A stretch of DNA of 56,203 bases, from positions 1-56,203 of the IMG/VR virus record IMGVR_UViG_2778260992_000008, one strand, 5' to 3'. Source of the stretch: a virus (lineage: Duplodnaviria; Heunggongvirae; Uroviricota; Caudoviricetes). Under the pieces are notes generated by a model, which was not told the origin of the DNA, searched no databases, and saw nothing but the letters and a program-made list of their open reading frames with translations. How positions within the stretch are numbered: the first letter of the stretch is position 1; each line of letters opens with the position of its first letter. The translations under genes and the position numbers were made by a program. This document shows positions 3,977 through 54,300 of this stretch, piece by piece.

Positions 3977-5095
3977 TTACAAAATGGAATATTCAGGGTA
4001 ATAAACAAAGCGCCCAATTTCCCCATAATCCGGGCTGTAAATTATTACCGCTGCCAGCCGCCGCGACCGCCAGCCGCCATTTGTTGAATAAGCGTCTTTG
4101 CCCGCTAACGTGCCGTGATGTTCAACGATCCCTAACGATGTTTCTACGACAGATTGATGATGTAGGTGGCCCGTGTGAGCGTAAACCGCCGCCGACTTAC
4201 CGAAATCCTCCCGCCAGTCAGAAACGCAGGCAGCCAACAAATTTTCGGGTTTTTTGATAGTGTGCCCGTGGTGGTAAGCAAGGAATGTTTTTCCGTACTG
4301 TGTGTGGTGAACGATAGCAGGGGATACATCAACCGTCACGCGCGGTTCATCTTCATAAAAAGCCGCCAGCGCCGCACGTAGCCAAATCATCCCCGATTGG
4401 TCGTGGTTGCCGGATAATACCTGGATCTCGACATCCTTATGATTTAGTAACATCTTCCCGACCGCACGCCTGACCGACCGGATCGCCACATAAACAAGTT
4501 TTGCGTAGCGACTATCTTGATCAAGAATATGTCCGCTTGTCGGTGTAACCGGGATCATCCCATCAGAATGGAGTAGATCTCCGCCTAACAGCAAAACAGC
4601 CTTTTCAGACATTGGAGCAGCGCCTACAGCGTAGTCGAAGAAGTCATTTAGCACGCGTTCAGCGATCCCGGTGTCGTAGCTTTCGCCGCATTCCGCCCTA
4701 TGCGCAAGCGCCCCGATATGAAGATCGAATACCGGATAAAGGGCCAGGCTTTTTTGGAAATCAATCTCAGGAACTGGCACAGCCTCCGCGCGGGGTATCT
4801 CTTCCGTGAAAGCATCGCAAGCCGCTTGCATTAGCCTTTCCATTTCGTCTCGATCACGGGCCGTTTTAATCCAGCGCATAATCACATTGCCATCCTTATC
4901 AACGAGCAATGATTCACCGTTAACACCGAAGCCAGGAGCGCGACGCGTGGATATTAAACCGCGCTTCGCCAGCCGTGCGCCCAGGCGTTCGACGTTGCGT
5001 TTTGCCATTCCATATTCTTCGGCTATTTGCTTGTAAGTTTTCCCCTTATTGTATTCAGCGATCAGTTGTTCGTCGCTGATCTTTCTTTGTGACAT
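3977..5095 (-). CDS. HTH-domain protein fused to calcineurin-like metallophosphoesterase
   Basis: N-terminal HTH (KTYKQIAEEYGMAKRNVERL); phosphoesterase motifs FDLHIG, GGDLLHSDG, SGNHDQ, YHHGH, HTGHLHH; sits between replication organiser and helicase. Confidence 0.6.
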   Translation of the reverse strand: MSQRKISDEQLIAEYNKGKTYKQIAEEYGMAKRNVERLGARLAKRGLISTRRAPGFGVNGESLLVDKDGNVIMRWIKTARDRDEMERLMQAACDAFTEEIPRAEAVPVPEIDFQKSLALYPVFDLHIGALAHRAECGESYDTGIAERVLNDFFDYAVGAAPMSEKAVLLLGGDLLHSDGMIPVTPTSGHILDQDSRYAKLVYVAIRSVRRAVGKMLLNHKDVEIQVLSGNHDQSGMIWLRAALAAFYEDEPRVTVDVSPAIVHHTQYGKTFLAYHHGHTIKKPENLLAACVSDWREDFGKSAAVYAHTGHLHHQSVVETSLGIVEHHGTLAGKDAYSTNGGWRSRRLAAVIIYSPDYGEIGRFVYYPEYSIL

Positions 5096-5272
5096 AACGT
5101 TATTCCCTCCGGTTCACGGAATGAGTATTTATTCATAAATAACTATTTTTATTAACATGGATTTTCCGGTGACAAAAAAAGTCATCGGTGATAAATCAAT
5201 AACTTACGCAAATTAAAAATAACTACTTAATAAATAACTAATCGTATACATTATAGTTTACATTTTGTATAT

Positions 5273-6184
5273 TCATTGACAGCAAACAATCTCTTTATAT
5301 GTTTCTTCTACCATGTCGAAAACTTCAGGCCTGTAATAAAAAAATTCTTCGCTACCGCTAAATTTTACAGGAAAGTTAATTTTATAATTGCTAAAAGCCT
5401 TATGCATCGTTCTTTCTAATTCATATATATTTTCGGTTGGTCCATATAGCGTTTTCACGATATGCAAATCAGGAATTATAACGCCTGCTTTATGTGCGCT
5501 TCTTAATACCTGATTTCTTCGCTCGTTCTCCTTAACACTTACACCTATTTTCATTTGTGTAGGTACTTCCAGATCATCAACCATGATGTAAAGTTTTCCG
5601 TGATCGTGGGATAAAAAACCGCGTTTACCGCATTTCGGGCAACCGTGCCCGCATTTAAGGTGACTAGGCTTTGCTAACCACTTGTGATTACAAACTTTAC
5701 AGCGACACAATACCTTCTTCGCATCTCCGGTAATTTTCCCTAAAACTTCAACATCATGATTAGCCTTAACAATATTTGCAACTTGTTCTTTGTGTGTTAA
5801 TGTTGCTTTTAATCTCGCGCATTTCGGGCAACCGTGCCCGCATTTAAGGGCATTAGGTATAGACGACCATTCATGTCTACAAACCTTGCATCGACATAAC
5901 ACTTTCGTTTTGTCTCCTGTTATTTCTCCTGTAACTTCAACATCAGGATTAACCTTAGCAATGGCTACAACCTGTTCTTCGTGTGTTAACTTCGCATTTC
6001 CAGCGCATTTTGGACAACCCTGACCTCGCTTGAGGTTGCAAGGTGTAGGCGACCATTCATGTCTACAAACCTTGCATCTACATGTGACTTTTGTTTTATT
6101 GCCAGTAATTTCCCCGATCACTTCAACATCAGGATTGACGTCAGCAATAACTGCAACCTGTTCTTCGTGTGTTAACTTTCTCAT
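5273..6184 (-). CDS. triple zinc-ribbon repeat protein with C-terminal T5orf172/GIY-YIG-like domain
   Basis: Three ~47-aa repeats (LTHEEQV..NPDVEV.GEITG.KTKV.CRCKVCRHEWS...GCPKC); C-terminal KLYIMVDD...ENIYELERTMH...SGSEEFF; AT-rich; start 6184 chosen (ORF extends to 6226). Confidence 0.55.
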   Translation of the reverse strand: MRKLTHEEQVAVIADVNPDVEVIGEITGNKTKVTCRCKVCRHEWSPTPCNLKRGQGCPKCAGNAKLTHEEQVVAIAKVNPDVEVTGEITGDKTKVLCRCKVCRHEWSSIPNALKCGHGCPKCARLKATLTHKEQVANIVKANHDVEVLGKITGDAKKVLCRCKVCNHKWLAKPSHLKCGHGCPKCGKRGFLSHDHGKLYIMVDDLEVPTQMKIGVSVKENERRNQVLRSAHKAGVIIPDLHIVKTLYGPTENIYELERTMHKAFSNYKINFPVKFSGSEEFFYYRPEVFDMVEETYKEIVCCQ

Positions 6185-6324
6185 CGATCCAACTCCACAA
6201 AACGCACCAGACGCTATACAACGCAAAATTCCACCGCGTAACCCACTTGTAAGGGTGCAGTGTCTTTTTCGCGCCAGAGACGCTATCAGGTGGCTAATTT
6301 TCGATTTTTAAGGTGACAGGGTAG

Positions 6325-6558: not shown

Positions 6559-7668
6559 TCAAAGAGCGCCAGCGCGTGTATCACGTAGCGTTTTTGGTTT
6601 AAGCAGGAAATCAAGTGTCGCAGTAAAGCCATTGCCGAAGTAAAAATCTGAAGCCGTGTTTTTGAACGCCTCAAAGTAAGCAATAAAGCCAGTGATGCTT
6701 TTGTCTTTCAGGTAGTCAGTGAACGCATAGATCTTGCGTTCCAAATCCCGATCCAGTTCGGCAGGTGGTAACAGGCCGTCGAATGTCTGGTTAAATGCTG
6801 ATACCACGACAGCAGCGTTAACAGTAGCTGTAACTCTTCGCCATTGTTCAGCATCAGCCAGATACCCATCAAACTTAGTTACCCGGCAAATGTTGATAGG
6901 CTTAGGTACTCCACTCCGGCTACGCCATTGCGTTAAAGCCCATTCAATTACTAATGTGATCTCATCCTCCGTATATGCCTTACGTGTTTTTGTTTCTGTC
7001 AGTAGTTCGATGAATGGCTTCGTATCACGACATTTGCATCCTGCTTTTTCGTTGTAGAAAGCTAAGCAACGGTAAGCCGCCTCGCTTATCTGAAAGTCAC
7101 CGTCCTGATTGACCGTTTTTTGTCCATTTTCGCTAATACACGAAGTGTATATATCTTTTTCTATTTCTTCTTCTACTTCTTCTTCTACTTCTAATCCATG
7201 GCTATGACATGGTTGTGCCATGGCTGCATCATGGTTGTGCCATGGTTTTTCTTTTTCTGTATCTTGTGAATTATTTACTTCCACTAAAGGATTATCTAAC
7301 TTTTTATTTTTTTTGACGTTTAGCCTTTTAATTGCTTCCCTAAATTCGCTTTTTGATGAAGCCATTGATTGATCAAGTCTTTTTGCTAACGACAAGCATC
7401 TTACAACGCCATGCGAGCAATCGAACAAGCCAACTTCGATGAAGTATCTCATCATTTCTTCTACACGTTTCGGACTTGATCCGACATTACGGGCAATAAT
7501 TCTTGCGTCGTGTTTTAGTTCGAATGTCAGATTATGTTGATCTACTTCGTAGGCTATTAACTCGATGCAGTACCAATAAAGGCCGTATCCTTCCAGACCA
7601 TAATCAAGCAAAACGTTTTGAAGTTTTTCATCGCGGTTCGCATCGCTATCATGCTTAAACCACTTCAT
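6559..7668 (-). CDS. replication initiation / replisome organiser protein
   Basis: N-terminus MKWFKHDSDANRDEKLQNVLLDYGLEGYGLYWYCIELIA resembles phage replisome-organiser N-terminal domains; strong RBS AGGAGAAAAGCAA-ATG; first gene of minus-strand arm. Confidence 0.7.
   Translation of the reverse strand: MKWFKHDSDANRDEKLQNVLLDYGLEGYGLYWYCIELIAYEVDQHNLTFELKHDARIIARNVGSSPKRVEEMMRYFIEVGLFDCSHGVVRCLSLAKRLDQSMASSKSEFREAIKRLNVKKNKKLDNPLVEVNNSQDTEKEKPWHNHDAAMAQPCHSHGLEVEEEVEEEIEKDIYTSCISENGQKTVNQDGDFQISEAAYRCLAFYNEKAGCKCRDTKPFIELLTETKTRKAYTEDEITLVIEWALTQWRSRSGVPKPINICRVTKFDGYLADAEQWRRVTATVNAAVVVSAFNQTFDGLLPPAELDRDLERKIYAFTDYLKDKSITGFIAYFEAFKNTASDFYFGNGFTATLDFLLKPKTLRDTRAGAL
7160..7330. repeat. iteron-like direct repeats plus AT-rich tract inside the replication gene (candidate origin)
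   Basis: CATGGTTGTGCCATGG at 7208-7223 and 7230-7245; CTTCTTCTACTT x2 upstream; AT-rich run 7246-7330. Confidence 0.45.
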
Positions 7669-7975
7669 TTGCTTTTCTCCTATGGTTAAAATGAACGCGC
7701 GGGCGGGTATCCCATTAGCATTAGATAGCAGTGATTGACCGCTTAACAGATCCCGCCGTTGCGTGATATTTGTTTTTCGCTTCGCAGCGACACCGGGTTT
7801 TTAAAGAGCTTTAAGGTATGCGCCTTTTTGTGCTATTCCCTTATCTTTTTTCTTGCATCCTTGCAAGTCTGGCTTTACCTTGTCTGCAAGTTTACAGAAT
7901 GGCATTTACAGGTCAAGACTTGAAAAATACATTTTGTGACTTGCATCAAACTTTTTGGGGCGATAGGGTAGCGAC

Positions 7976-8623
7976 ATGAAAACAAAATGGTATGACTTAG
8001 CAAAACAACTCATGCGGGCGCAAGGTATGAGCCAGGATTCATTGGCGGACCTGATGGGGATCACGAAAGGCGGCTTATCGCACTGGCTGAACGGTCGCCG
8101 TGAGCCAAATCTTAATGATATTGCGCGGATCATGCGGGCGCTTGGTCGTCGGCAGTTTACGGTCACACATGATGGGATGGTTATTGATGATTCACTTTCT
8201 AATACACTGCCGGGAGCGCCACCGCTCGACGTAGGGCGTTATCCGGTGATTGACTGGAAAGACGCAGGAAACTACATGGAAGAAGCAAAACGCGCATCAT
8301 TACCGCACGTTAACACTAGCGTGATTTGTTCGGATGATAGTTATTGGCTGGTTGCAAAAGGTGAATCGATGAACGCGCCGCAAGGATTGAGCATCCCGGC
8401 GGGAACGATGATACTTGTTGATCCACACGCGCCAGCTATTGACGGCAAACTGGTTATAGCCCAATTGGAGGAAGGGCAAACGCCGACGTTTAAACAGTTG
8501 ATTATTGATGGAGGTCAAAGGCTTTTACGCTCGCTTAATCCGTTGTATCCACCAATCCCGCTAAATCCTGAATCAAAAATTATTGGCGTGGTGGTGGACG
8601 CGAAGATCGTAAACCTGCCATAA
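7976..8623 (+). CDS. cI-like repressor, HTH plus S24 LexA-type peptidase domain
   Basis: N-terminal HTH (SQDSLADLMGITKGGLSHWLNGRR); C-terminal GESM Ser and FKQL Lys dyad; divergent from replication genes. Confidence 0.85.
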   Translation: MKTKWYDLAKQLMRAQGMSQDSLADLMGITKGGLSHWLNGRREPNLNDIARIMRALGRRQFTVTHDGMVIDDSLSNTLPGAPPLDVGRYPVIDWKDAGNYMEEAKRASLPHVNTSVICSDDSYWLVAKGESMNAPQGLSIPAGTMILVDPHAPAIDGKLVIAQLEEGQTPTFKQLIIDGGQRLLRSLNPLYPPIPLNPESKIIGVVVDAKIVNLP

Positions 8624-8732: not shown

Positions 8733-8775
8733 GTATACAAAATGGATTGACTCGACATATCACAGGGCGTATATT
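8733..8775 (+). promoter_or_regulatory. sigma70-like early promoter with upstream ACAAAATGG element
   Basis: TTGACT (8747-8752), 17-nt spacer, TATATT (8770-8775); GTATACAAAATGGA immediately upstream. Confidence 0.55.
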
Positions 8776-9098
8776 GCGAATCAAAGGAAGGAAGCAGGAA
8801 ACAAAAAGCACCTTCCAGGCACTTTAAAAATCAGGCTTAACACCTTGTCAACCGTGGAGTAACTCCCCGATGTGGGACCGAAAGCGGCACTGATAACAAG
8901 GCGCATGGGGTGTTTAAAGCGTTACATCCCCCACGAAACCGCACGCAAGGCGACGAGTCAGATCACTTGGATTGAGTGGTGTCACACCGGAAACGGCGAT
9001 GATTGCGGGATTAGTTGAACGATGTTAAGCCATTCTCTTTAACAATCTGGTCGCTACTGAAATGTAGCAAACATGATTTTAACTAAGGAGAAAAGATT

Positions 9099-9389
9099 AT
9101 GAATGCGAAGATCATTTACGGTAACTGTGAGAGCAAATTAAATGCACGGAAGCGCCGCCGGATGAAGCGGGCAGCCGAACAAGACGAAGGCCCGCACATA
9201 CAGAAGATTGATAAAGTGGAAAAAGCTATTCGCTTTGCAAATGAGGAAAGATGCAAATCAAATAGCGTTAAAGAACGTCGCAAGGGCGCGACAAAATGGT
9301 ATCAGGAAAATGAAAGCGGCAACTACTTCCACGCAACGCAGCCGCGCCAGCTTGGGGAGATCCCGTTAGATAAAGTTCGATACCATTAA
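9099..9389 (+). CDS. hypothetical basic protein (96 aa)
   Basis: Strong RBS AAGGAGAAAAGATT-ATG; first ORF after a ~320-nt leader. Confidence 0.5.
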   Translation: MNAKIIYGNCESKLNARKRRRMKRAAEQDEGPHIQKIDKVEKAIRFANEERCKSNSVKERRKGATKWYQENESGNYFHATQPRQLGEIPLDKVRYH

Positions 9390-9419
9390 TACAAAATGTA
9401 TACAATCGGAGGTGACATT

Positions 9420-12823: not shown

Positions 12824-12903
12824 TAAATATACATTTTGTATTGTCCCGCTGTATCCGTTTTGTAAACTGAAGTTAGAAGGTATACAGAACGGAGGGCGGG
12901 AAG

Positions 12904-16677: not shown

Positions 16678-16699
16678 TGTTTACAAAATGGCGTCATTG

Positions 16700-16715
16700 T
16701 GTGATGAAGGTCACA
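16700..16715. promoter_or_regulatory. perfect CRP-type palindrome TGTGA-N6-TCACA
   Basis: TGTGATGAAGGTCACA, ~18 nt upstream of candidate -35 TTGTTC (16733-16738) and -10 TATACT (16755-16760). Confidence 0.4.
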
Positions 16716-16840
16716 TAATGGCGCTTTTTACTTTGTTCGGGTGTATCCATTTTGTATACTGCAATCAAACGAAATGCTCTTTAAAAATCCGGCCCCGCTG
16801 AAATGCGGAAACACATCACCTAACAGAATGAGATCAAATT

Positions 16841-18571: not shown

Positions 18572-18737
18572 AGATCTGCAAATTGATATTCAGCGTGATG
18601 AGCATGATTTAGAAACTGTCAGACAAATCCAGGCTTTTCACATGCGCGAATTGCTCGCATTAAAAGAGCTTGAGAGAAAGTTAGTCCAGGCTATTTCTGA
18701 TCGTAAACAACTGGCGGCGCGTTACGGGGGTAAATAA
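18555..18737 (+). CDS. hypothetical coiled-coil protein (60 aa)
   Basis: ATG 18555 with RBS GGGGTGA; inside track ORF 18522-18737. Confidence 0.4.
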   Translation: MKNEIKDLQIDIQRDEHDLETVRQIQAFHMRELLALKELERKLVQAISDRKQLAARYGGK

Positions 18738-19459
18738 TGAATTTAGAATCCATTCTAAAATTCCACTTCCCCAAATCGCCGCGATTATCAGACGAAAGCC
18801 GGGGCACGTCACCGGATGCGCTTAATACAACGGATGCGCTAACCGCTGCTGGTATGGCGCAATCGCGCGTAGAGCTTGGATATAGCGCTTTTTTAGGAAA
18901 GATGGAACTATCGCAAGCCGAAAAACACAGGGCCGTAGTTTTGCTTACAGAGCGTTTAAGAGCTATGGCAAAAGATTACGAATACGTGATGGAATTAAAT
19001 GAAGAACAACGCAATGATCTTATTATTCTTGTTGCCGTTTTCGCGTTTCGGGATTATTGCCAAAGCGCCGCGACGGAAAAAACTTGTATGGAGTGCGGCG
19101 GATATAAATTTACGTTTGACGACTACGGAGAAAAACACCTTTGCAAAAAATGCAAGGGGCATGGGAAAGTTCGCAATCATTGTAAACAATGCAAGGGGCG
19201 TGGCGAAGTACCGGATAAAGCAGCCAGCGAAGCGGCGGAAATGCCAGTTTTCAAAACGTGCCAGCACTGCGGCGGGCGCGGGTACTCGCGTTTCCCGGTA
19301 GATCTTGTCCGCCAGGCGGTTAATCAGCTTGTTTTCCCGGTAAGCCGATCAACCTGGTGGAAAAAATACCGGGTTTTCTATGAAGACGCCATAGCGGAGC
19401 TATTCAAAGAAGAGGCCCGCGCGGAAAGTGAAATCAAACGAGTGACACGGGGTGATTAA
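18737..19459 (+). CDS. DnaJ-type zinc-finger protein (CxxCxGxG x4), possible late regulator
   Basis: CMECGGYK, CKKCKGHG, CKQCKGRG, CQHCGGRG; downstream of nin/rusA where lambdoid phages often place Q. Confidence 0.4.
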   Translation: MNLESILKFHFPKSPRLSDESRGTSPDALNTTDALTAAGMAQSRVELGYSAFLGKMELSQAEKHRAVVLLTERLRAMAKDYEYVMELNEEQRNDLIILVAVFAFRDYCQSAATEKTCMECGGYKFTFDDYGEKHLCKKCKGHGKVRNHCKQCKGRGEVPDKAASEAAEMPVFKTCQHCGGRGYSRFPVDLVRQAVNQLVFPVSRSTWWKKYRVFYEDAIAELFKEEARAESEIKRVTRGD

Positions 19460-22944: not shown

Positions 22945-22968
22945 AACGTGATCTACCCCGCAAAGTTT

Positions 22969-23008
22969 ACAAAATGGCATTGTTCAGGCAGTGCCATTTT
23001 GTTATAAA
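22969..23008 (+). promoter_or_regulatory. inverted repeat ACAAAATGGCA/TGCCATTTTGT overlapping a sigma70-like promoter
   Basis: 11-nt arms at 22969-22979 and 22992-23002; TTGTTC (22980-22985), 17-nt spacer, TATAAA (23003-23008). Confidence 0.5.
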
Positions 23009-37616: not shown

Positions 37617-38228
37617 TTAGTTCCAGTGGCAAGCATTTTTCACTTTGTTGATATGTTTTTCTAAGCCTTCGATGTTGAATGTTGCTTTTTCGATATAGCC
37701 CGCTTCCGGCAATGTTTCGATAATGAATTGTTTCTCGTTAAGCATTTTTTTAATCATCGGGATGGCTTTTTTGCCGTTCCATAATCCCAGGGCTTTATAG
37801 TTAGTTGCCCGTTGCCATTCTGCTTTCACCGCTTTATGTTCCCCGATCCGGTAGGTAACTTGGGTGGTATCGCCAGCATCCGCAATCATGTTATGCCAGG
37901 CTACAAACATTTTTGTTGTATTGGCTTTGCATTCGATAACTAATACCGGTTTATTTTTCTCTTTTGCTTTCAGTGCCGGGAAATCATCAAGCTGACCGTT
38001 AAATTTTACCGCTTTGACATGTAGCTGTACATTGGGTGTATCGTGCATATCGTCCTTACCTTCCCACACGGCCCACTGTTTCCCAATGTTATCCCGTTCC
38101 ATTTCTTGATGTTTTTCAGCTATTTCTTTTTCAAATTGTTTAATATTTTCAAGGCTTTTTGCTTGTTGTTCGCAACCAACCAGCCCAACCAGCGCCGCCA
38201 TTATTGCCACTTTCGCTAACCGTTTCAT
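37617..38228 (-). CDS. lipoprotein (accessory gene, opposite strand, inside tail module)
   Basis: Signal peptide plus lipobox MKRLAKVAIMAALVGLVGC; ATG 38228 with GGGG RBS; own promoter and terminator. Confidence 0.6.
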   Translation of the reverse strand: MKRLAKVAIMAALVGLVGCEQQAKSLENIKQFEKEIAEKHQEMERDNIGKQWAVWEGKDDMHDTPNVQLHVKAVKFNGQLDDFPALKAKEKNKPVLVIECKANTTKMFVAWHNMIADAGDTTQVTYRIGEHKAVKAEWQRATNYKALGLWNGKKAIPMIKKMLNEKQFIIETLPEAGYIEKATFNIEGLEKHINKVKNACHWN

Positions 38229-38276
38229 AAAACACCCCGTTTGCCTTGAATTACTAACCACTTCCTATAGCTTCTT

Positions 38277-38316
38277 TATACAAAATGGAGTCGTTAAAGC
38301 AAATCCATTTTGTATA
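38277..38316. promoter_or_regulatory. perfect inverted repeat TATACAAAATGGA-N14-TCCATTTTGTATA with divergent promoter elements
   Basis: 13-nt arms at 38277-38289 and 38304-38316; TATAAA-like hexamers at both ends, one per strand. Confidence 0.55.
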
Positions 38317-41242: not shown

Positions 41243-41270
41243 CCCCCGGCGAAAGCTGGGGGTTTTCTTT
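41243..41270. terminator. bidirectional hairpin terminator after tape measure gene
   Basis: CCCCCGGC-GAAA-GCTGGGGG followed by TTTTCTTT; T-rich on the opposite strand too. Confidence 0.6.
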
Positions 41271-41448
41271 ATTCAACTTCGTCATTTTTAAATTCGTTGT
41301 TTACATAAAGCTGTAATGCGCTTATCAGTTCGGCGGCTTGCTTTTTGTCTATGACGATTAATTCGCAGTCACTTTCAAGCCATAATCTTTCGTCATATTC
41401 AATGCTAAGATTAATCCGCCGACAACCTTCCGTTTCATGAATAATCAT
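41269..41448 (-). CDS. small acidic protein (59 aa)
   Basis: MIIHETEGCRRINLSIEYDERLWLESDCELIVIDKKQAAELISALQLYVNNEFKNDEVE; RBS GGGGGAAATA; ends at the bidirectional terminator. Confidence 0.35.
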   Translation of the reverse strand: MIIHETEGCRRINLSIEYDERLWLESDCELIVIDKKQAAELISALQLYVNNEFKNDEVE

Positions 41449-41539
41449 TATTTCCCCCTATAATCGACCATTCCGCGCAATATATCCCCTTCCGAAAATT
41501 ACCAACCAAATATTCCAGATCTCCCGCCATGTAAATTTA

Positions 41540-41689
41540 TCATCTTCCATATCTCACCCCATCGCGCTTATAAGGCTTGTTATCAGCAAACGGGATTAAC
41601 GCATCGTTTGCCACCTGGCGATTAAACCAATCTTTCAGGACAACCAGGGAAAACCGGATGCCGTAGCTATGTAATTCGTGCCATTTCAT
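41540..41689 (-). CDS. small hypothetical protein (49 aa)
   Basis: ATG overlaps stop of upstream 84-aa gene (ATGA). Confidence 0.25.
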   Translation of the reverse strand: MKWHELHSYGIRFSLVVLKDWFNRQVANDALIPFADNKPYKRDGVRYGR

Positions 41690-41940
41690 TTATGACACCC
41701 CCGCACGCCGCATAATTCATTGTATTTATGATGCTCAACAATCAACCAAACTTTTAGATCCTGGCTGTAAAGCCGCCAATCAGGGTTGATATCGAATTTA
41801 AAACCATAACCATCTCGTAACTTTTTGGGGTGGGCTTCTTTATTTAGGAAAGCATTTAATAAAGCCTTACCCTTTTTGATGATCCGGTCCTGCGCGTTTT
41901 TTTGTGCTTTCAAATTTTTATCAATCGCTACCAGTTTCAT
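41686..41940 (-). CDS. hypothetical basic protein (84 aa)
   Basis: ORF in track; second gene of a tightly packed minus-strand cassette. Confidence 0.45.
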   Translation of the reverse strand: MKLVAIDKNLKAQKNAQDRIIKKGKALLNAFLNKEAHPKKLRDGYGFKFDINPDWRLYSQDLKVWLIVEHHKYNELCGVRGCHK

Positions 41941-41958
41941 AGCCCACCCCCATCATCC

Positions 41959-42126
41959 TTAGTTGACCGCTTTCAGGTAAAAATCCCGGTATTCGTTTTC
42001 CTTCACGTTCATGTAGAATTGGCCCATTTTAAATGCATCGTCGAAGCCTTTAACGATCGCCACTTCCACTTGTTCGAATGCGTCGTTAAGCATCACGACC
42101 GCGTAGTGTTTATCGTTGCGTTTCAT
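41959..42126 (-). CDS. small hypothetical protein (55 aa)
   Basis: ATG 42126 preceded by AAGGAGG; track ORF 41959-42201 begins further upstream. Confidence 0.4.
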   Translation of the reverse strand: MKRNDKHYAVVMLNDAFEQVEVAIVKGFDDAFKMGQFYMNVKENEYRDFYLKAVN

Positions 42127-42295
42127 CTTGGGCCTCCTTTGTTGGTACTGCTTTTCTTCTTGCTTTCTGTATACATCTTGTTGCGTCCTGTGTGAAGCCA
42201 TTTTGTAAACTGGTTATAATTCTTGTGATGAAGTTCTCATTTTTCGCGTAGAAGCGCGTAAAGATGTACACAAAATGTAACTTATAGGGGGAATT

Positions 42296-42649
42296 ATGCC
42301 GGAAGTGTTTACCTGGACGCCGCAGCGTAGCTACAGCGTAACCAGGGAGCCGAACGTTTCAGTTATTAAGCTGGGTGATGGTTATGAACAAAGGCAGACA
42401 AAAGGGATTAACCCTTTGCTTGATAGCTATAGCCTTGTCTTTAAGGGTACAAGCGCCGGATGCGGTGACGCTGGCAATCCAGCGATCCAGGCGGAGGCGT
42501 TTTTACGGGCGCGCGGCGCGGTCGAGGCGTTTTACTGGACGCCATCAATGGATGGGGAGCAAAGGCTTTTTGTCTGCCGAAAATGGAACATGACAAAGGA
42601 TGGCCCTGTGTTCACGCTAACCGCGACGTTTGAGCAAGTGATGAATTAA
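42296..42649 (+). CDS. minor tail protein M (lambda gpM-like)
   Basis: GDGYEQRQ...YSLVFKG...EAFLRARGAVEAFYWTP...FTLTATFEQVMN parallels lambda M. Confidence 0.8.
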   Translation: MPEVFTWTPQRSYSVTREPNVSVIKLGDGYEQRQTKGINPLLDSYSLVFKGTSAGCGDAGNPAIQAEAFLRARGAVEAFYWTPSMDGEQRLFVCRKWNMTKDGPVFTLTATFEQVMN

Positions 42650-43195: not shown

Positions 43196-43444
43196 CTATA
43201 AGTTATCACGCAGATAATTAACGCCCTTGTCAGTGACGAATGAATGATTAACCTGGTTTTCATCCGTCATAATAATGAATAACTTTTCCTGTAAGTATTT
43301 TGCTTTTGGGTACAGCGTTAAACAGACCTGATACAGTATCCCGCGCTCAATCAGCAAATCAATAAATTCGTGCTCATGATAACCGATGAGACGGGCGGCC
43401 TGTTTCAACGTGTACACATAATCACCGTGATTGCGCCGCCCCAT
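43196..43444 (-). CDS. hypothetical protein (82 aa), possibly DNA-binding
   Basis: ORF in track; YTLKQAARLIGYHEHEFIDLLIERGIL has HTH-like character. Confidence 0.4.
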   Translation of the reverse strand: MGRRNHGDYVYTLKQAARLIGYHEHEFIDLLIERGILYQVCLTLYPKAKYLQEKLFIIMTDENQVNHSFVTDKGVNYLRDNL

Positions 43445-43452
43445 GTTGCCGC

Positions 43453-43806
43453 CTATTTATCAAAGCAACTTAAATTATCGATACAGAAGTCTTTAGCAGC
43501 ATTTTCGTATTCGCGTTTTGCTTCAGGATCGTCAGCCGGGAAGCCTTTTGCGTGGATTTCACCAGGGCAAGACTGATCCATAGAGTCTGCAAATTCAACA
43601 TTGACGTTAAAGTTAATATCTTTCGGGTTCATATCTTCCACCTTCTCGGCTATTTGTACCGGAGTTATTTTGAATTCCCTGGCGCGCCCGAAGAAGCGAA
43701 CAAGTTTTTCTCCTTCCTCGACTGCCATTTCGTAACTGTCATGTAAGCCGTAACCTTCCCAATCCTTACTGCCTGCCATCCATACATCGAGACGGTATTT
43801 TTGCAT
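43453..43806 (-). CDS. hypothetical acidic protein (117 aa)
   Basis: ATG 43806 four nt after upstream stop; track ORF extends to 43860. Confidence 0.4.
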   Translation of the reverse strand: MQKYRLDVWMAGSKDWEGYGLHDSYEMAVEEGEKLVRFFGRAREFKITPVQIAEKVEDMNPKDINFNVNVEFADSMDQSCPGEIHAKGFPADDPEAKREYENAAKDFCIDNLSCFDK

Positions 43807-43807
43807 T

Positions 43808-43975
43808 TTACTGATCCCCGCTTTTAATCGGTTTAATCCGGTAGCCCAGGACGCGATCATCTTTTTCCGATAGGTCGAGGGCCGTTTCTAGGGCGTCGCC
43901 AGGGTTATCGAATTCAGCCTCGATATCACGCCCGTTACTCATGAATAAGGTCAGTCGCCATAGTTTATCGTTCAT
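43808..43975 (-). CDS. small hypothetical acidic protein (55 aa)
   Basis: MNDKLWRLTLFMSNGRDIEAEFDNPGDALETALDLSEKDDRVLGYRIKPIKSGDQ; RBS AAGGGCGCGGG; first gene downstream of minus-strand promoter. Confidence 0.35.
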   Translation of the reverse strand: MNDKLWRLTLFMSNGRDIEAEFDNPGDALETALDLSEKDDRVLGYRIKPIKSGDQ

Positions 43976-44023
43976 CCCGCGCCCTTTTGTGCCATTTTGT
44001 TAACTGTGCTTCCGTTTGAGTAA

Positions 44024-44061
44024 AATATACATATTGTACAAACCGCGATCAATCCATTTTG
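44024..44061 (-). promoter_or_regulatory. sigma70-like promoter for minus-strand cassette, with upstream CAAAATGGA element
   Basis: On minus strand: CCAAAATGGA-TTGATC-N17-TATATT; same layout as the promoter at 8733-8775. Confidence 0.5.
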
Positions 44062-44106
44062 GTATGATTTGGCGTGACGCAGATCACAAAATCAGAAGGT
44101 GAGAAA

Positions 44107-50367: not shown

Positions 50368-50960
50368 TGGCAACCTTCGGAGCTTATTTGAGATTAAGTA
50401 ACGGGAATATTTTCGTTACACCGGAAGCGACGCCGCTTTGCTTATATAAACGGGTGGCATTAACATCATCGAATCAAACCGTCGCCGTGCCACCCGGAAA
50501 ACCCGTGATGGTATTTGTGAAAAGCACTACCGCCGCCGCTGTATTAGCTTATAGAAATAGTTCATCGACTTTACTGATCGGTGCTGGTTCGGGGTATGCG
50601 TATATTTTCAGTATTTTCCCGCCATCGCTGCCGAAATGGGGAATGGCTATCTGGAACGCTTCCGGGGAACTGGTGCTAACTAATGAATCAAGAATATTAA
50701 CAGACCTTGTAACCGTGGGGACAGCAGGATCAAGTGGCGGGATTTATATAGACCAGACGTTATCCGGTTCTTATGCTATTTGCCCCCAATTGTTAGGGGC
50801 GCTCGTTGGACAGGGTAGTGCCTCCATTTATGCGGCGGCTTATTACAACGGAAGCACGACCAGAATTTACGGTATCCAGGCGGGTAGCGTATATGCACCA
50901 ACTGGCTATATCAACCACGGGAACGCTATCACCGCCATTAAAACCGACGCCTATGATTAA
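50367..50960 (+). CDS. hypothetical tail-associated protein (MATFG paralog 2)
   Basis: 197 aa; ATGA overlap; begins MATFGAYL and shares WNASGE with paralog 1. Confidence 0.45.
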   Translation: MATFGAYLRLSNGNIFVTPEATPLCLYKRVALTSSNQTVAVPPGKPVMVFVKSTTAAAVLAYRNSSSTLLIGAGSGYAYIFSIFPPSLPKWGMAIWNASGELVLTNESRILTDLVTVGTAGSSGGIYIDQTLSGSYAICPQLLGALVGQGSASIYAAAYYNGSTTRIYGIQAGSVYAPTGYINHGNAITAIKTDAYD

Positions 50961-51196
50961 TTCAGTTCCGGGCAATCCGTTTTCTTGAAGTGGTCAACGC
51001 TTACCCATTGAAAATTAAACGGATACCCGGCCTTAACCATTTTATGACCGCCAACATCCGCGACACCGAAGACTGCAACCGCATATTCATTACCGCCAGT
51101 TTGATAAATTGCCGTGCATTCACGTTTAGGCATGTCAGCGCAACCAACCAGACCAGCAACCATTGCAACGATAGCGATATTTTTTAAGCCTTTCAT
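50957..51196 (-). CDS. Cor-like lipoprotein (candidate superinfection exclusion)
   Basis: Signal plus lipobox MKGLKNIAIVAMVAGLVGC; ATG 51196 with RBS GGAGGG; between J and side tail fibre, where cor sits in lambdoid phages. Confidence 0.45.
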   Translation of the reverse strand: MKGLKNIAIVAMVAGLVGCADMPKRECTAIYQTGGNEYAVAVFGVADVGGHKMVKAGYPFNFQWVSVDHFKKTDCPELN

Positions 51197-51355
51197 TGTC
51201 TTACCCTCCGTTGTTTCGTTGGTTGTAGTATCCACAAACTGTATTTTCTCAACATTGATATAAATCAACAAATACATTTTGTATAAACCAAAAATGTAAC
51301 ATAGATCACAAAATGGTAGAATTATTCCGTTAATTAACATAATGGAGTCATTGCA

Positions 51356-54300
51356 ATGATCTACACCATTGGAAATATTGCCGTATCCGGTAACACGCTG
51401 ACCGGGACGGGCACAAATTTTAAAGCACCCTTATCTATGATCCGCGTAGGGTGCACCGTTATTGTAAAAAGCGACCCTATCCAGATCTTTTCCATCACTG
51501 AAATTGTCAGTGAAACGGAATTATCTGTGACCCCGGCAGCATCACCGGATATTCCGGCGGGTACTGCTTACAGTATTTTATTGTGTGATTCGATCTCAGT
51601 TGATGGGCTGGCGCAAGACGTAGCGGAAGCATTACGGTATTTTACCGGGCAAGAGTCAGAGATCTATGCTGCCGTTGAATACTGGAAAAATTATGGTGAT
51701 GCCGCGCAGGTGGAAGCATTGTTAACCGCTATCCAGGCGGAAACAGCGCAATCAACCGCCAACGCCGCAGCCACCGCCGCAGACGTTGAAACAACCGCCG
51801 CAGCACTGAATGAAGCTGTAGCAGCAAAAGACGCAGCGGAAGCAGCAGCCGCCAACGCAGAGCAGCAGGCCGCCACCGCCACCACGCAGGCGACTACCGC
51901 TACCGAACAAGCTACCGCCGCAGCGGAAGCAGCAGCAGAAGCAAAAGATCATCGTGGCACGGCTTACATCTGGATGAATGAGGCTATCAGCCAGGCGACA
52001 ACGGCTACCGAGCAAGCGACCATCGCTACCGAAAAAGCAACGGCAGCGACCGATGCCGCCACCGCCGCACAGGAAGCACTGACGCTTACCCAGGAAGCCC
52101 GCGACACTGCCACCCAACAGGCAACCATCGCTACCGAACAGGCCACTATCGCTACTGACGCCGCCAACGCCGCCGAAACAAGCGCCGCCAACGTCGCAGC
52201 AGACGAACAAGAAATTGCAGCCAATGCAGCCGCAGCAGCAGAAGCAGCCACCGCCGCCGCATTATCAGAAGCTAATGCGAAAACTTACGCGGAGCAAGCA
52301 AAAGCACTATCAGAAGACTCATTATCCCTTATCGGCTTGGGCGCTGATCGCCGTGATTGGCCCGATTGCACGACTGATCCATCAGCCTATATTGGCTTTG
52401 TTCGTCTGGAAGAAGCCACCGCGACGGGTTTCCCGTCTATCGCTTCCGGTGAAGTCTACCTGGTAGGCTGGCTGGCACGCGGTGACGGCCTGTTCATCAA
52501 TGGTTGTTTCGTAGGTACGAATACTCGCTCGCTCTACACCTACATGTATAACAATGCCGATGGGACTTACGGCTGGACCCGTCACGCCCGGAAGGACGAA
52601 GTAAGTCGCTTTGTTCAGCGCGGCGGTGAATCGGAGGTGTACAGTGGCGATGGTCGTAAATATTTTTTCATAAACAACATGGACGGGACTTATCATTGGG
52701 GGGCTTACGATACAAGTACGGGGCAAACCGTTCCGTTACAAGTATCTTGCGGCGGTACAGGTGGGCGTAATGCCGGACAAGCCCGCACCAGCTTACAGGT
52801 GATGTACGAACAAAAAACTGACCTCGGAGATACGGATCTAAACACCCTGACTGGTGAGTATTCCGGTTTCTATCGCCAGAAAACCAACGCAAAAGCCACC
52901 ACTGAACATAATTACCCGTGCAACTATGCGGGCGCGCTTGTCGTGCTGGGGAATAGTGCTAATAGTGATTCGGGATGTACGCAAATTTATTACCCCTATA
53001 ACTATAGTGATTTGTATTATACCCGTTGGTGTAATGGTTCTGATCTTAATTGGTCCGACTGGTGCGAGCATCGCGGCTACTGGACAATCCTTAATAACAT
53101 TGGCTTAGGTGCATCACCTCGCCATTGTAATGATCTCACGGGTGATCCATTCTCTTATATTGGCTTCTTACGCCTGACTCCGGCGGGGACCACTGGCTAT
53201 CCTGACGTCGCAACAGAAGCGGGCGAGGGCGCTTTGAGTGGTTACATCTGCCGTAACGATGGTGAACCTTCATACTCCGGCTTATTTGTCGGTGCTACGA
53301 CTGGCGCGGCCTACACCTACCGCTATAGCTTAGGTGGTGGCGTTCAATGGCAAAGAATTCCGCGAGCTAATGACTTAAGCCGTTTTGTGCAAAACGACTC
53401 AACAACGCGCATGTATGGCCCGACAGGCGATCGCTTCTTTGAGATCCACACCAACGGTAATTGGGGTGTTTACAGTACCGCTGATTCCGCGTGGATACCG
53501 TTAGGTATTGCACAGGGCGGCACAGGTGCAACAGACGCAGCCACGGCCCGCACTAATTTAGGGTTAGGCACTACAAACGATGTGCAGCATCAGAATCTGA
53601 CGCTGACCCGTACAAGCGACGGGACAGATGGTTGGGTAGCTGGTGGTATGACCAAATCTAAACTTTTAGGTACTGACGGCACTGTACGCGCCGAGGGCTG
53701 GATGTATGCAGAATGCAACGCAAGTAGCCCAACGCAAATGACCTTTGCCATCCATTCAGCGACCGAAGGCTACAAATATTTGTCTTTCAATACGAAAGGC
53801 CAGATCCTGGCTGAAACGGCTATTTTCCGTTCAACCTACGTTAACCCGTTGGTTATTGAAAGCACTACCCCGACAGTCAGCTTTAACGAAACCGACCGCC
53901 CGGATGGCGCACCTTATTACAACTTTATTGCCGATGGCGGCAACTGGCGTATTCAGAAAAACGGCGACGGGTATGATGGTGAATATGTAATAAGTTATGA
54001 CTATAAACTCAACGAGATTCAAGTACCTAACTTGCTTGCTACGGCTATCCAGAAACCTTTAAACCTCGATCAGACCAAAACAAATCTGCAAATCCCTTAC
54101 ACCGGGGTGAGCCATTGGACCGACTACAACGCCCCGGAAGGCGCGGAAGCAACCAAATACTATCCGGTTATTATTTCTCAACCGTCATACTTCAACGGTG
54201 ATTTCTTTGTCGAAGTCGCTATGCGCACACGCTCAATACAGGGCGCTGAAGAACCTAACTGTAACGCCATTCACCTATGGATGCGTGATGGTGGCTGGTC

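What the first reader, a model, noticed from the sequence alone, without database searches (positions are those of the whole stretch)
8733..8775. Recurrent ACAAAATGG / CCATTTTGT element in intergenic regions
The exact 9-mer occurs at least ten times (near 3979, 8737, 16683, 16747, 22969, 22994, 38281, 38305, 42198, 43992) against about 0.4 expected by chance in 56 kb on both strands. All copies are intergenic, often as inverted pairs. In three cases (8733, 22969, 44061 on the minus strand) it abuts the -35 of a promoter with 16-17-nt spacing. Variants (ACATTTTGT) occur before cI, at 9393, 12833 and 51273. This looks like the binding site of a phage-encoded regulator or a shared promoter element.
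Basis: seen in the sequence. Interest (0 to 1): 0.6.

Follow-up and report, generated by a model that had tools for sequence, protein, structure and literature searches.

The report
Dispersed operators of a prophage repressor
The recurring ACAAAATGG word is the core of a 13-bp binding site (ATAC-AAAAT-G[G/T]AT), most likely for this E. coli prophage's lambda-cI-like immunity repressor, and instead of sitting only beside the repressor gene it is repeated at about a dozen promoter regions across the whole genome.

Summary
ACAAAATGG occurs 13 times against 0.86 expected and is the most over-represented 9-mer in the window. It is the core of a 13-bp dyad, ATAC-AAAAT-GTAT. Three copies are perfect palindromes ("class B") and most of the rest carry ATAC-AAAAT-GGAT ("class A"). 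Twenty strong sites form about 12 clusters, and 18 of 20 lie outside ORFs (P about 1e-15). The window is an E. coli prophage of the mEp021/mEpimmI group, and the sites are syntenic in all relatives examined. The motif family is the only sequence shared by the two early control regions (PL/repressor promoter, and PR). The same site family fills the classical cro-cI and post-cI control regions of two unrelated prophages (Citrobacter, Serratia) whose repressors share the window's recognition helix. It is absent from a control prophage whose repressor has the same C-terminal domain but a P22-C2-type DNA-binding domain. I therefore read the motif as the operator of the CI-like repressor. Sites sit preferentially about 42 and about 17 bp upstream of predicted transcription starts, usually as pairs 25 bp apart that bracket the -35. 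What is unusual is the dispersal: 13-20 sites per genome. In concept this resembles P1 C1 operators or mycobacteriophage stoperators, but here the repressor is a lambda-type dimer. No binding has been tested.

The parts
7892..7904 (+). Operator O1 (TTACAGAATGGCA, one core mismatch). It covers the spacer and -10 of the leftward early promoter PL (TTGACC 7921-7916, 16 nt, TAAACT 7894-7889). It is centred about -42 from the rightward repressor-gene promoter (TTTACA 7905-7910, 17 nt, TACATT 7928-7933).
   Evidence: PWM 18.5 bits. Promoters called by the scan tool. Geometry. Conserved in all 7 genomes.
7926..7938 (-). Operator O2 (read on the minus strand: CACAAAATGTATT). It overlaps the -10 of the repressor-gene promoter and lies just upstream of the PL -35.
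   Evidence: (17.4 bits). In L026 the same position holds a class A copy.
7980..7992 (+). Possible operator O3 (AAACAAAATGGTA) within codons 2-6 of the repressor gene (M-K-T-K-W-Y). It may be conserved only because of coding.
   Evidence: 15.7 bits. One mismatch in L026.
7976..8623 (+). Gene for the CI-like immunity repressor (HTH_3 + Peptidase_S24, 215 aa), the proposed binder.
   Evidence: Pfam. Lambda cI is the best PDB match, E 1e-20. 91-99% identical to the mEpimmI repressors. Rep021 function shown in PMC11893012.
8735..8747 (+). Operator O4 (ATACAAAATGGAT), the finding's own site. It abuts the -35 of the early rightward promoter PR (TTGACT 8747-8752, 17 nt, TATATT 8770-8775) and is centred about -42.
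   Evidence: invariant in 6 genomes; 23.4 bits.
8760..8772 (+). Putative weak partner operator O5 (TCACAGGGCGTAT: 6 of 8 arm positions, G/C-rich centre), exactly 25 bp from the O4 centre, over the PR spacer and -10.
   Evidence: the same partner at d=25 in all 7 genomes (arms 6-7 of 8; chance 0.044 for an 11-position window). Missed by the PWM. Inferred, not shown.
9389..9401 (.). Perfect palindromic operator ATACAAAATGTAT between the N-like gene stop codon and the next gene.
   Evidence: 20.6 bits. Syntenic in mEp021, mEp010 and L026.
12829..12865 (-). Tandem operator pair ATACATTTTGTAT (12829-12841, perfect) and ATCCGTTTTGTAA (12853-12865), 24 bp apart, bracketing the -35 of a rightward promoter TTGTCC-16-TAAACT. 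A weaker third copy lies at 12882-12894.
   Evidence: Syntenic in the relatives.
16680..16757 (.). Cluster holding operator TTACAAAATGGCG (16680-16692), the strong intrinsic terminator 16690-16725, a degenerate copy at about 16711-16723, and operator ATCCATTTTGTAT (16745-16757). The last operator contains the -10 of promoter TTGTTC-16-TATACT (start about 16767), which is followed by nutR2 (16773-16811).
   Evidence: terminator with 16 pairs; I1.
22967..23004 (.). Inverted operator pair, 25 bp centre to centre, bracketing the -35 of rightward promoter TTGTTC-17-TATAAA (TG-extended).
   Evidence: Paralogous to the 38279 module (D17).
38278..38315 (.). Inverted operator pair ATACAAAATGGAG / ATCCATTTTGTAT (25 bp) between the leftward VasI-like gene and the tape-measure gene. 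Each operator is at about -42 of one divergent promoter and about -16 of the other.
   Evidence: The same pair with a 16-nt gap occurs in 17 IMG/VR contigs.
42196..42208 (-). Operator (minus strand: TTACAAAATGGCT) at about -42 of leftward promoter TTCACA-17-TATACA (accessory cassette) and inside the spacer of rightward promoter GTGAAG-17-TATAAT (minor tail gene).
   Evidence: (24.7 bits).
42267..42279 (+). Operator ACACAAAATGTAA just upstream of the ribosome-binding site of the minor tail gene (start codon at 42297).
   Evidence: (21.1 bits).
43991..44066 (-). Cluster of three sites at a divergent region. TAACAAAATGGCA (43991-44003) is at about +20 of leftward promoter TTGATC-17-TATATT. A weak GTACAATATGTAT (44027-44039) lies over its -10. 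A weak ATACCAAAATGGAT (44054-44066) is at about -42.
51272..51318 (.). Perfect palindrome ATACATTTTGTAT (51272-51284) upstream of the leftward Cor-like exclusion lipoprotein gene, and operator ATCACAAAATGGT (51306-51318) whose TGG forms the TG of an extended -10 (TGgTAGAAT) ahead of the tail-fibre gene (51356).
3977..3989 (+). Isolated operator TTACAAAATGGAA over the stop codon of the exonuclease gene, 18 bp before the DnaB-helicase gene in the leftward operon. No convincing promoter. Possible roadblock site.
   Evidence: (21.5 bits). Syntenic in mEp021, mEp010 and L026.
5258..5270 (-). Isolated operator (minus strand: ATACAAAATGTAA) in the 177-bp gap of the leftward operon.
   Evidence: 21.1 bits.

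Best explanation
The motif is the operator of the prophage's lambda-cI-like immunity repressor (HTH_3 + S24 peptidase, gene 7976-8623). The full site is a 13-bp dyad, ATAC-(A/T-rich 5 nt, here almost always AAAAT)-GTAT, presumably bound by a repressor dimer. The commonest form has one arm change (GTAT to GGAT or GGCx).

The recurring functional unit is a two-operator module. One operator is centred about -42, abutting the -35. A second, 24-26 bp away, is centred about -17 over the spacer and -10, where the arm GTATA doubles as part of the -10 hexamer. Two dimers bound cooperatively, as lambda cI binds at OR1-OR2 or OL1-OL2, would occlude RNA polymerase.

The module controls the three early promoters, each followed by a nut site: PL, PR, and a third promoter at about 16767. 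Unlike classical lambdoid phages, it is also copied to internal promoters and to the divergent junctions between tail genes and leftward accessory cassettes. One repressor would therefore silence roughly a dozen transcription units directly.

Shown here: the enrichment, the non-coding location, synteny, the geometry relative to predicted promoters, and co-occurrence with the repressor's DNA-binding domain in independent genomes. Inferred: that the repressor binds these sites, the stoichiometry, the cooperativity, and the sign of regulation at each site.
For: (1) Enrichment and location. 13 exact copies against 0.86 expected. 20 sites of at least 15 bits, 18 outside ORFs in a genome that is 89% coding, P about 1e-15.

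(2) Three perfect 13-bp palindromes ATACAAAATGTAT.

(3) Synteny. 13-16 strong sites in each of mEp021, mEp010, mEp515, mEp044, mEp554 and MagusPhagus, and 8 in 20 kb of the more distant L026 phage. At PR the operator is invariant while the promoter spacer varies.

(4) Elimination. The motif family is the only word shared between the PL/repressor-promoter region and the PR region. No Cro-like HTH ORF is present there in the window.

(5) Independent genomic backgrounds. In a Citrobacter prophage (L030, repressor 52% identical) and a Serratia prophage (L033, 41%) with classical cro/cI architecture, the cro-cI gap and the promoter after cI are filled with the same family. Examples are ATACAAAATGGAA, ATACATAACGTAC, ATACAAAACGTAT and ATACAATTTGTAT. 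An unbiased word comparison finds the same result.

(6) Co-variation. The recognition helix ITKGGLSHWLNGRREPN is identical in the 56%-identical repressor of L026 and near-identical across the clade. The control L034 has the same C-terminal domain with a P22-C2-type N-terminal domain. It has P22-style operators and no such sites.

(7) Geometry. The operator centre lies at -43..-40 of a predicted promoter for 8 of 20 sites (background 0.048, P 2e-6) and at -18..-15 for 12 of 20 (P 1e-11). Adjacent operators are 24-26 bp apart in the window, L030 and L033. PR has a conserved weak partner exactly 25 bp away in 7 genomes.

(8) Rep021, a close homologue of the window's repressor (which is 91-99% identical to the mEpimmI repressors), blocked infection by all six mEp phages tested (mEp021, mEp010, mEp013, mEp044, mEp554, mEp515) when expressed from a plasmid (PMC11893012). 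These phages must therefore share operators.
Against: - No binding experiment exists, and the assignment is by association.
- In this phage group the A-tract centre and the G at position 11 are more conserved than the outer right arm. That is unusual for a dyad operator read by a symmetric dimer, and it leaves room for asymmetric recognition or a second constraint.
- Arm-only matches (ATAC-N5-GTAT with any centre) are not enriched beyond the AAAAT-centred copies.
- The weak PR partner site is invisible to the weight matrix.
- The half-site centres are only about 9 bp apart, shorter than in lambda's 17-bp operators.
- Promoters are predicted, not mapped, and the -16 peak is partly circular because the operator arm resembles a -10.
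- A few sites (3977, 5258, 9389, 42267) have no convincing promoter.
Confidence: 0.78

Rival explanations
1. The sites are bound mainly by a different phage regulator, such as a Cro-like protein or another HTH protein that travels with the repressor gene, rather than by the CI-like repressor.
For: In L026, L030 and L033 a small HTH_3 gene lies divergently next to the repressor gene. mEp021 has gp14, an 81-aa HTH protein. By analogy with lambda (established knowledge), Cro and cI share operators, so a Cro-like protein may bind the same sites as well.
Against: The window has no such gene. The first leftward gene is a 369-aa Lin1244_N protein, and no small HTH ORF lies near PL or PR, yet it has the full set of sites. 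gp14 of mEp021 is annotated as MarR-like and so is a different kind of protein from the HTH_3 neighbours. The only DNA-binding protein common to all five backgrounds that carry the sites is the repressor clade.
Confidence: 0.08
2. The motif is a promoter element read directly by host RNA polymerase (a special extended -10, spacer or UP-like element) with no dedicated repressor.
For: On the opposite strand the motif reads CCATTTTG-TA(T/A)A(C/A)T and supplies a -10-like hexamer at PL, 16745, 22992 and 38278/38303. At 51306 its TGG forms an extended -10. At PR it lies where a proximal UP subsite would be.
Against: - The same word occurs at about -42, about -17, about +20 and at promoter-less positions, in both orientations.
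- Three copies are perfect palindromes.
- Polymerase elements are not conserved to 12-13 bp.
- The word tracks the repressor's DNA-binding domain in unrelated prophages and is absent from the P22-type control, which infects a similar host.
- Promoter-like sites overall are not enriched in the window.
Confidence: 0.04
3. The dispersed copies act mainly as elongation roadblocks ('stoperators') rather than as promoter operators.
For: Several copies lie in short gaps inside operons without a convincing promoter: 3977 before the helicase gene, 5258, 9389 directly after the N-like gene, 42267 before a tail gene, and 43991 at about +20. A roadblock after the N-like gene would help contain leaky early transcription.
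Against: - Most copies sit at fixed positions in promoters (P 2e-6 and 1e-11).
- Orientation is not tied to the direction of transcription. 3977 is antisense in the window, while the L026 equivalent is sense, and many copies are inverted pairs or palindromes.
- In L5-type systems orientation is essential and the repressor is a two-domain monomer (PMC9283540).
Confidence: 0.1

Closest known systems
Lambda cI with its OR/OL operators (and other lambdoid CI repressors such as 434 and P22 C2)
   Same: - The repressor has the same two-domain build, HTH plus S24 peptidase-like domain, and lambda cI is the best PDB match (E 1e-20).
- The operator is a dyad.
- Adjacent operators are about 24-25 bp apart.
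- One operator (O1) overlaps an early lytic promoter while sitting about -42 from the repressor's own promoter, like OR2 at PR/PRM.
- The acidic residues at lambda's positive-control positions E34 and D38 are kept as D21 and D25 (alignment; their function here is inference).
- N-like and Q-like antitermination are present (PMC11893012).
   Different: - The operator is 13 bp with a conserved A-tract centre, not 17 bp.
- Sites are not confined to two clusters beside the repressor gene but spread over about 12 clusters across 56 kb, including the tail module.
- The repressor gene is transcribed in the same direction as PR and is separated from it by a terminator.
- There are three early promoters with three nut sites.
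- The repressor reportedly lacks the Ala-Gly cleavage site, and the lysogens are not UV-inducible (PMC11893012).
Bacteriophage P1 C1 repressor and its dispersed operators
   Same: It is an E. coli temperate phage in which one immunity repressor controls many operators scattered over the genome (22 operators, PMC8546580). From my own knowledge, some of these are arranged as paired or overlapping copies at promoters of diverse, non-adjacent genes.
   Different: The P1 operator is a 17-bp asymmetric sequence, ATTGCTCTAATAAATTT. By my own knowledge, C1 is unrelated in sequence to CI/LexA-type repressors and binds as a monomer. P1 immunity also involves Coi, Lxc and the C4 antisense RNA. No sequence similarity to the present operator.
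Mycobacteriophage L5 / cluster A gp71 repressor with operators and stoperators
   Same: More than twenty 13-bp repressor sites are distributed through the genome, at promoters and in short intergenic gaps, silencing the whole prophage (PMC9283540).
   Different: L5 sites are asymmetric, their orientation correlates with the direction of transcription and is required for function, and the repressor is a monomer with two DNA-binding domains. Here the sites are dyads, or inverted or tandem pairs with no orientation rule, and the repressor is a CI-type protein with a dimerising S24 domain.

Membership tests
Operator of a lambda-type CI repressor (HTH + S24) | A CI-type repressor gene is present and the sites lie at the early promoters flanking or near it | tested here: met
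   Repressor with HTH_3 + Peptidase_S24. Sites O1-O3 lie at PL and the repressor promoter, and O4 at PR. The motif family is the only shared word between these regions.
Operator of a lambda-type CI repressor (HTH + S24) | Dyad-symmetric site compatible with a dimer | tested here: inconclusive
   Three perfect 13-bp palindromes, and fully symmetric arms in L033. However, most window copies are asymmetric (GGAT or GGCx right arm) with a strongly conserved centre.
Operator of a lambda-type CI repressor (HTH + S24) | Site specificity follows the DNA-binding domain across genomes | tested here: met
   The same site family lies next to repressors of the same recognition-helix clade in L026, L030 and L033. 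It is absent next to the repressor with a P22-C2-type N-terminal domain in L034.
Operator of a lambda-type CI repressor (HTH + S24) | Multiple adjacent operators spaced for cooperative binding (about 2.3 helical turns) | tested here: met
   Centre-to-centre distances of 24-26 bp in the window (12835/12859, 22973/22998, 38284/38309, 8741/8766), in L030 (twice) and in L033 (twice). Cooperativity itself was not tested.
Operator of a lambda-type CI repressor (HTH + S24) | Physical binding of the repressor to the site and repressor-dependent promoter control | not testable with these tools
   Needs EMSA, footprinting, ChIP or reporter assays. Only plasmid-borne Rep021 immunity is published (PMC11893012).
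Stoperators (L5/cluster A type) | Asymmetric site whose orientation correlates with the direction of transcription | tested here: not met
   Copies occur in both orientations within one operon context, as inverted pairs and as palindromes. The helicase-upstream copy is antisense in the window and sense in L026.
Stoperators (L5/cluster A type) | Monomeric repressor with two DNA-binding domains | tested here: not met
   The repressor is HTH_3 + Peptidase_S24 and aligns with lambda cI over both domains.
Stoperators (L5/cluster A type) | Many sites dispersed genome-wide in short intergenic gaps | tested here: met
   20 strong sites in about 12 clusters, 18 of 20 non-coding.
P1 C1-type dispersed operators | 17-bp asymmetric consensus ATTGCTCTAATAAATTT bound by C1 | tested here: not met
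   The consensus here is ATACAAAATG(G/T)AT. The repressor belongs to a different family.
Q-antiterminator binding element (QBE) of a late promoter | A single site between the -35 and -10 of the late promoter downstream of the Q gene | tested here: not met
   There are about 20 sites, including in the immunity region. In L030, which has a Q of the same Pfam family, no site lies near the Q gene, whereas the sites flank the repressor gene.

The most novel reading that the evidence does not exclude
The repressor is a genome-wide bifunctional switch. At each divergent junction it behaves like lambda cI at OR. It represses the lytic or structural promoter whose core it covers. From the -42 position it also activates the opposing weak promoter of an accessory (lysogenic-conversion) cassette, for example the Cor-like exclusion lipoprotein gene, whose weak promoter carries a perfect palindrome at about -42, and its own gene. 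If so, the prophage carries about half a dozen copies of an OR-like bistable module. The need to keep about 20 operators matched to one protein would then explain why 48 known members of this phage group share a single immunity type.
Probability: 0.25. Interest if true: 0.75.

Novelty: new variant of a known kind. Interest (0 to 1): 0.55.

Why it matters
- **Operator definition.** The mEpimmI phages were recently proposed as a new family of gut coliphages, and their repressor was shown to confer immunity, but the group's 2025 paper (PMC11893012, which I searched for operator, repeat, motif and palindrome) does not define operators. This analysis gives a concrete operator sequence, about 20 mapped sites, three early promoters matched to the three published nut sites, and a repeated two-operator promoter module. 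All of it can be tested directly with the existing Rep021 clone.
- **Regulatory architecture.** It suggests that a lambda-type dimeric repressor can be used in the dispersed, whole-genome silencing mode so far associated with unrelated repressors (P1 C1, L5 gp71).
- **Single immunity group.** It offers an explanation for the group's single immunity type.
- **Practical use.** The operator list predicts where virulent mutations should arise. The module is also a compact repressible bidirectional promoter part.

Tried and rejected
- **Generic dyad ATAC-N5-GTAT with any centre.** Not enriched beyond the AAAAT-centred copies, so the centre belongs to the site in this phage.
- **434-like operator ACAA-N6/7-TTGT using the -35 as second half-site.** The spacing varies (N6 or N7) and the right half is inconsistent, so I rejected it by inspection.
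- **Motif as a -35 hexamer (TTTACA).** No consistent -10 lies 16-18 nt downstream.
- **Host-factor sites recalled from memory** (IHF, Fis, DnaA, TyrR, LexA, CRP). None fits. There is no LexA box in the window. The P22-type control argues against a general host factor.
- **Q antiterminator as binder.** Rejected; see the membership test.
- **Alternative operator candidates CTTGCATC / TTGCAAG near the repressor gene.** Not shared with the PR region.
- **Weight-matrix search for a second operator over the PR core.** Nothing found. An arm-only search then found a conserved weak partner.
- **Repressor activation of the Cor-like gene as a conserved feature.** The palindrome is conserved, but the core promoter is not, so I downgraded it to the speculative case.
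- **Literature.** The mEp021 antitermination paper (Arch Virol 2023) is not held. Searches for the sequence strings returned only primers and unrelated genes.
- **Longer mobile cassettes.** Only about 31-38 nt of paralogy around three modules.
Full report
**Observation.** ACAAAATGG occurs 13 times on both strands of the 56.2-kb window, against 0.86 expected from dinucleotide-preserving shuffles (maximum 3 in 100). It is the most frequent 9-mer in the window. When the copies are aligned in one orientation, conservation extends to about aGT(A/T)TACAAAATGG(A/C). A second form, ATACAAAATGTA(T), recurs six times, and three of those copies are perfect 13-bp palindromes ATACAAAATGTAT. A weight matrix built from the intergenic copies finds 20 sites of at least 15 bits, and 27 of at least 9 bits against 8.75 expected. 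Eighteen of the 20 lie outside ORFs in a genome that is 89% coding (binomial P about 1e-15). One exception overlaps the first codons of the repressor gene. The other covers the last three codons and the stop of an exonuclease gene. The exact copy at 9291 inside the N-like gene has poor flanks, is absent from relatives, and is probably chance.

**What the window is.** The window is 81-86% identical to the mEp021 group of temperate coliphages (mEpimmI). Its immunity region is present in 35 of 5,426 complete E. coli genomes, with the best match at 99.7%. The group's 2025 description shows that the CI-like repressor Rep021 blocks infection by all six tested members, and it describes an N-like antiterminator acting at three nut sites. 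It does not define operators and does not mention this repeat (PMC11893012). In the window the repressor gene (7976-8623, HTH_3 + Peptidase_S24; best PDB match lambda cI, E 1e-20) is read rightward and ends at a terminator. The scan tool calls three promoters: a leftward one, TTGACC-16-TAAACT (7916-7889, 'PL'); a rightward one ahead of the repressor gene, TTTACA-17-TACATT (7905-7933); and a strong rightward one after the terminator, TTGACT-17-TATATT (8747-8775, 'PR'), which precedes nutR1 and the N-like gene.

**Conservation.** Every relative examined carries 13-16 strong sites at syntenic positions:

- before the helicase gene;
- around PL and the repressor promoter;
- at PR;
- after the N-like gene;
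- as a tandem pair in the early region;
- as a pair flanking the terminator before NinG;
- as a pair before the tape-measure gene;
- at the junctions between tail genes and leftward accessory cassettes.

At PR the operator and the A/T tract upstream are invariant, while the promoter spacer differs at about eight positions between phages. A scan of 2.9 million viral contigs for the inverted pair found 17 contigs. All are the orthologous tape-measure-upstream pair with an exact 16-nt gap.

**Who binds it.** Three lines of evidence converge on the CI-like repressor.

1. *Elimination.* The only words shared between the PL/repressor-promoter region and the PR region, on either strand, belong to the motif family. 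These two regions must share operators, because one repressor confers immunity. The window has no Cro-like HTH gene near these promoters, whereas mEp021 and L026 have different small HTH genes there.
2. *Independent backgrounds.* A homology search shows a gap between repressors of the same group (at least 91% identical) and the next relatives.
   - The 56%-identical repressor P0007 belongs to a ~53-kb phage with the same gene order (L026-L029). Its N-terminal domain is nearly unchanged, with a recognition helix ITKGGLSHWLNGRREPN identical to the window's, and most of the divergence is C-terminal. It carries the same motif at the same places.
   - The 52%-identical repressor of a Citrobacter prophage (L030) and the 41%-identical repressor of a Serratia prophage (L033) sit in classical lambdoid cro/cI arrangements in otherwise unrelated genomes.
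   - Their 98-104-bp cro-cI gaps, and the promoters after cI, are filled with ATACATAACGTAC, ATACAAAATGGAA, ATACGGATTGTAA, ATACAAAACGGAT, ATACGTTATGTAT (L030) and ATACATATCGTAT, ATACATATTGTGT, ATACAAAACGTAT, ATACACATCGTAT, ATACAATTTGTAT (L033). One of these is the window's motif exactly.
   - An unbiased word comparison of the two L030 control regions returns the same family.
3. *Co-variation.* A Salmonella-type prophage repressor (L034) has the same C-terminal domain (41% identity overall) but a P22-C2-type N-terminal domain. It has P22-style ATTTAAG...CTTAAAT operators and none of these sites.

The Q-family antiterminator (18737-19459) is not supported as the binder. In L030, which encodes a Q of the same family, no site lies near the Q gene.

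**Anatomy and likely mechanism.** The site is a 13-bp dyad, ATAC-N5-GTAT. In this phage group the centre is almost always AAAAT, and the commonest right arm is GGAT or GGCx. With an arbitrary centre the dyad is not enriched, so the centre is part of what is recognised or selected.

Relative to promoters predicted with a relaxed sigma-70 model, operator centres cluster at two positions. One is -43..-40: 8 of 20 sites against 4.8% of intergenic positions, P 2e-6. The other is -18..-15: 12 of 20, P 1e-11. The second figure is inflated because the arm GTATA resembles a -10 hexamer.

The two positions usually occur together, as a pair 24-26 bp apart that brackets the -35. The pair is inverted at 22967-23004 and 38278-38315 and tandem at 12829-12865. 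The same module forms the early promoters after cI in L030 and L033.

PR at first seemed to have only the -42 operator, since the weight matrix finds nothing over its core. An arm-only search then shows a partner, (T)(C/T)AC-rGGGC-GTAT, exactly 25 bp downstream in all seven genomes, matching 6-7 of 8 arm positions. By chance only 4.4% of positions give such a match anywhere in an 11-position window. I infer that two repressor dimers bind cooperatively, as lambda cI does at operators 24 bp apart (established knowledge), and occlude the promoter.

O1 (7892-7904) covers the PL -10 and spacer and is centred about -42 from the repressor's own promoter. That is the arrangement of lambda OR2 at PR/PRM. 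The acidic residues at lambda's positive-control positions are retained as D21 and D25 (alignment). Positive autoregulation is therefore plausible but untested.

**Why the dispersal makes sense.**

- There are exactly three boxA-plus-hairpin nut-like sites, each just downstream of an operator-bearing promoter: PL to nutL, PR to nutR1, and a third promoter, TTGTTC-16-TATACT (start about 16767), to nutR2. The third promoter follows the strongest terminator in the early region, so that cluster is very probably a genuine early promoter needing repression.
- In the tail module, leftward accessory cassettes interrupt the rightward structural genes. They include a VasI-like gene, two cassettes of unknown function, and a Cor-like exclusion lipoprotein gene, and they are bounded by terminators.
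- Each junction is a short divergent control region with one to four operators.
- Modules at 22968, 38279 and 51250 are about 77% identical over 31-38 nt, which suggests spread by duplication.
- A few isolated copies without a convincing promoter (3977, 5258, 9389, 42267, 43991) could act as roadblocks.

**Comparison with known systems.** Functionally this is a CI-type operator set, and the protein is a lambda-cI homologue. The genome-wide layout resembles P1, which has 22 dispersed asymmetric C1 operators (PMC8546580), and the L5-type mycobacteriophages, which have more than 20 asymmetric 13-mers, orientation-dependent, bound by a two-domain monomer (PMC9283540). It fails the defining features of both: a different protein family, a dyad site and no orientation rule. 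In the two classical relatives of the repressor (L030, L033), sites are confined to the immunity region within the DNA examined. The dispersal is therefore a feature of the mEpimmI lineage, and of L026-type phages, with 8 strong sites in 20 kb.

**Open points.**

- Binding, stoichiometry and the sign of regulation are all inferred.
- The strong conservation of the centre and of G11 is not explained by a simple symmetric-dimer model.
- The idea that the repressor activates accessory genes from -42 is attractive for the Cor-like gene in the window: a weak promoter TTGTTG-17-GAAAAT with a perfect palindrome at about -42. But in mEp021 the same palindrome lies inside the spacer of a TATAAT promoter, so the idea is only a minority reading.

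**Verdict.** The element is most probably the operator of the prophage's CI-like repressor, organised as a repeated two-operator promoter module and dispersed over the genome. It is a new variant of a known kind, of moderate interest, and immediately testable.

Noticed in passing
window 864, 8681, 14439, 21052, 22814, 32032, 37098, 38648, 45277, 47719: A second over-represented near-palindromic word, AAAACCCGTTTT: 4 exact and 6 one-mismatch copies against 0.67 expected. At least some copies fall inside ORFs (14439, 22814 and 47719 by the ORF list) and 8681 is intergenic, so it does not look like an operator. Unexplained.
   Followed up: partly
window 7774-7812(-), 9035-9075(+), 16773-16811(+): Three nut-like sites (boxA GCTCTTTAA plus a small hairpin), matching nutL, nutR1 and nutR2 described for mEp021. 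Each lies just downstream of an operator-bearing promoter, which implies three early transcription units rather than two.
   Followed up: partly
window 16690-16725: The strongest intrinsic-terminator-like hairpin of the early region (16 pairs) lies between two operators. Its 5' arm starts inside operator 16680-16692, and its 3' arm contains a degenerate operator copy, ACATAATGG.
   Followed up: no
window 5628-6178: Three tandem ~186-nt repeats (76-80% identical) inside the minus-strand gene 5273-6226, which encodes a protein with treble-clef zinc-finger (DUF4379), CapR and T5orf172 matches.
   Followed up: no
window 37617-38261(-), 41269-42126(-), 43196-43975(-), 50957-51196(-): Leftward accessory cassettes interrupt the rightward tail-gene module. 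They are a VasI-like protein, several proteins of unknown function, and a Cor-type superinfection-exclusion lipoprotein (lipobox LVGC). Each is bounded by terminators and an operator-bearing divergent region.
   Followed up: partly
window, whole: There is no LexA box (CTGT-N8-ACAG) anywhere in the prophage. The group's repressor is reported to lack the Ala-Gly cleavage site and its lysogens are not UV-inducible (PMC11893012), so the induction route is unknown.
   Followed up: partly
window 6559-7668(-) versus mEp021 gp14/gp13, and L026 9649-9876: The first gene of the leftward early operon differs among otherwise syntenic relatives. It is a 369-aa Lin1244_N protein in the window, an 81-aa MarR-like HTH protein plus a replication protein in mEp021, and a 75-aa HTH_3 protein in L026. 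Some E. coli prophages (for example STEC308) carry about 700 extra bp with an HTH gene here.
   Followed up: no
window 7982-7993 and 9291-9302: The same 12-mer, ACAAAATGGTAT, encodes T-K-W-Y both at the N-terminus of the repressor and inside the N-like protein. The second copy is absent from mEp021 and mEp010 and is probably coincidental.
   Followed up: partly
L026 10831-10870: In the L026 relative, the spacer between boxA and boxB of nutR1 reads GCTCTTTAACAAAATGGAACGCTGAAAAGCG, so it contains the operator core. Whether the repressor could bind nut-site DNA there is unknown.
   Followed up: no
window 51743-52270: Dense, degenerate 21-nt-periodic repeats rich in GCC/GCA (Ala/Thr-rich coding) lie near the 5' end of the 1615-aa tail-fibre ORF, which runs off the end of the window (D2-D5).
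   Followed up: no
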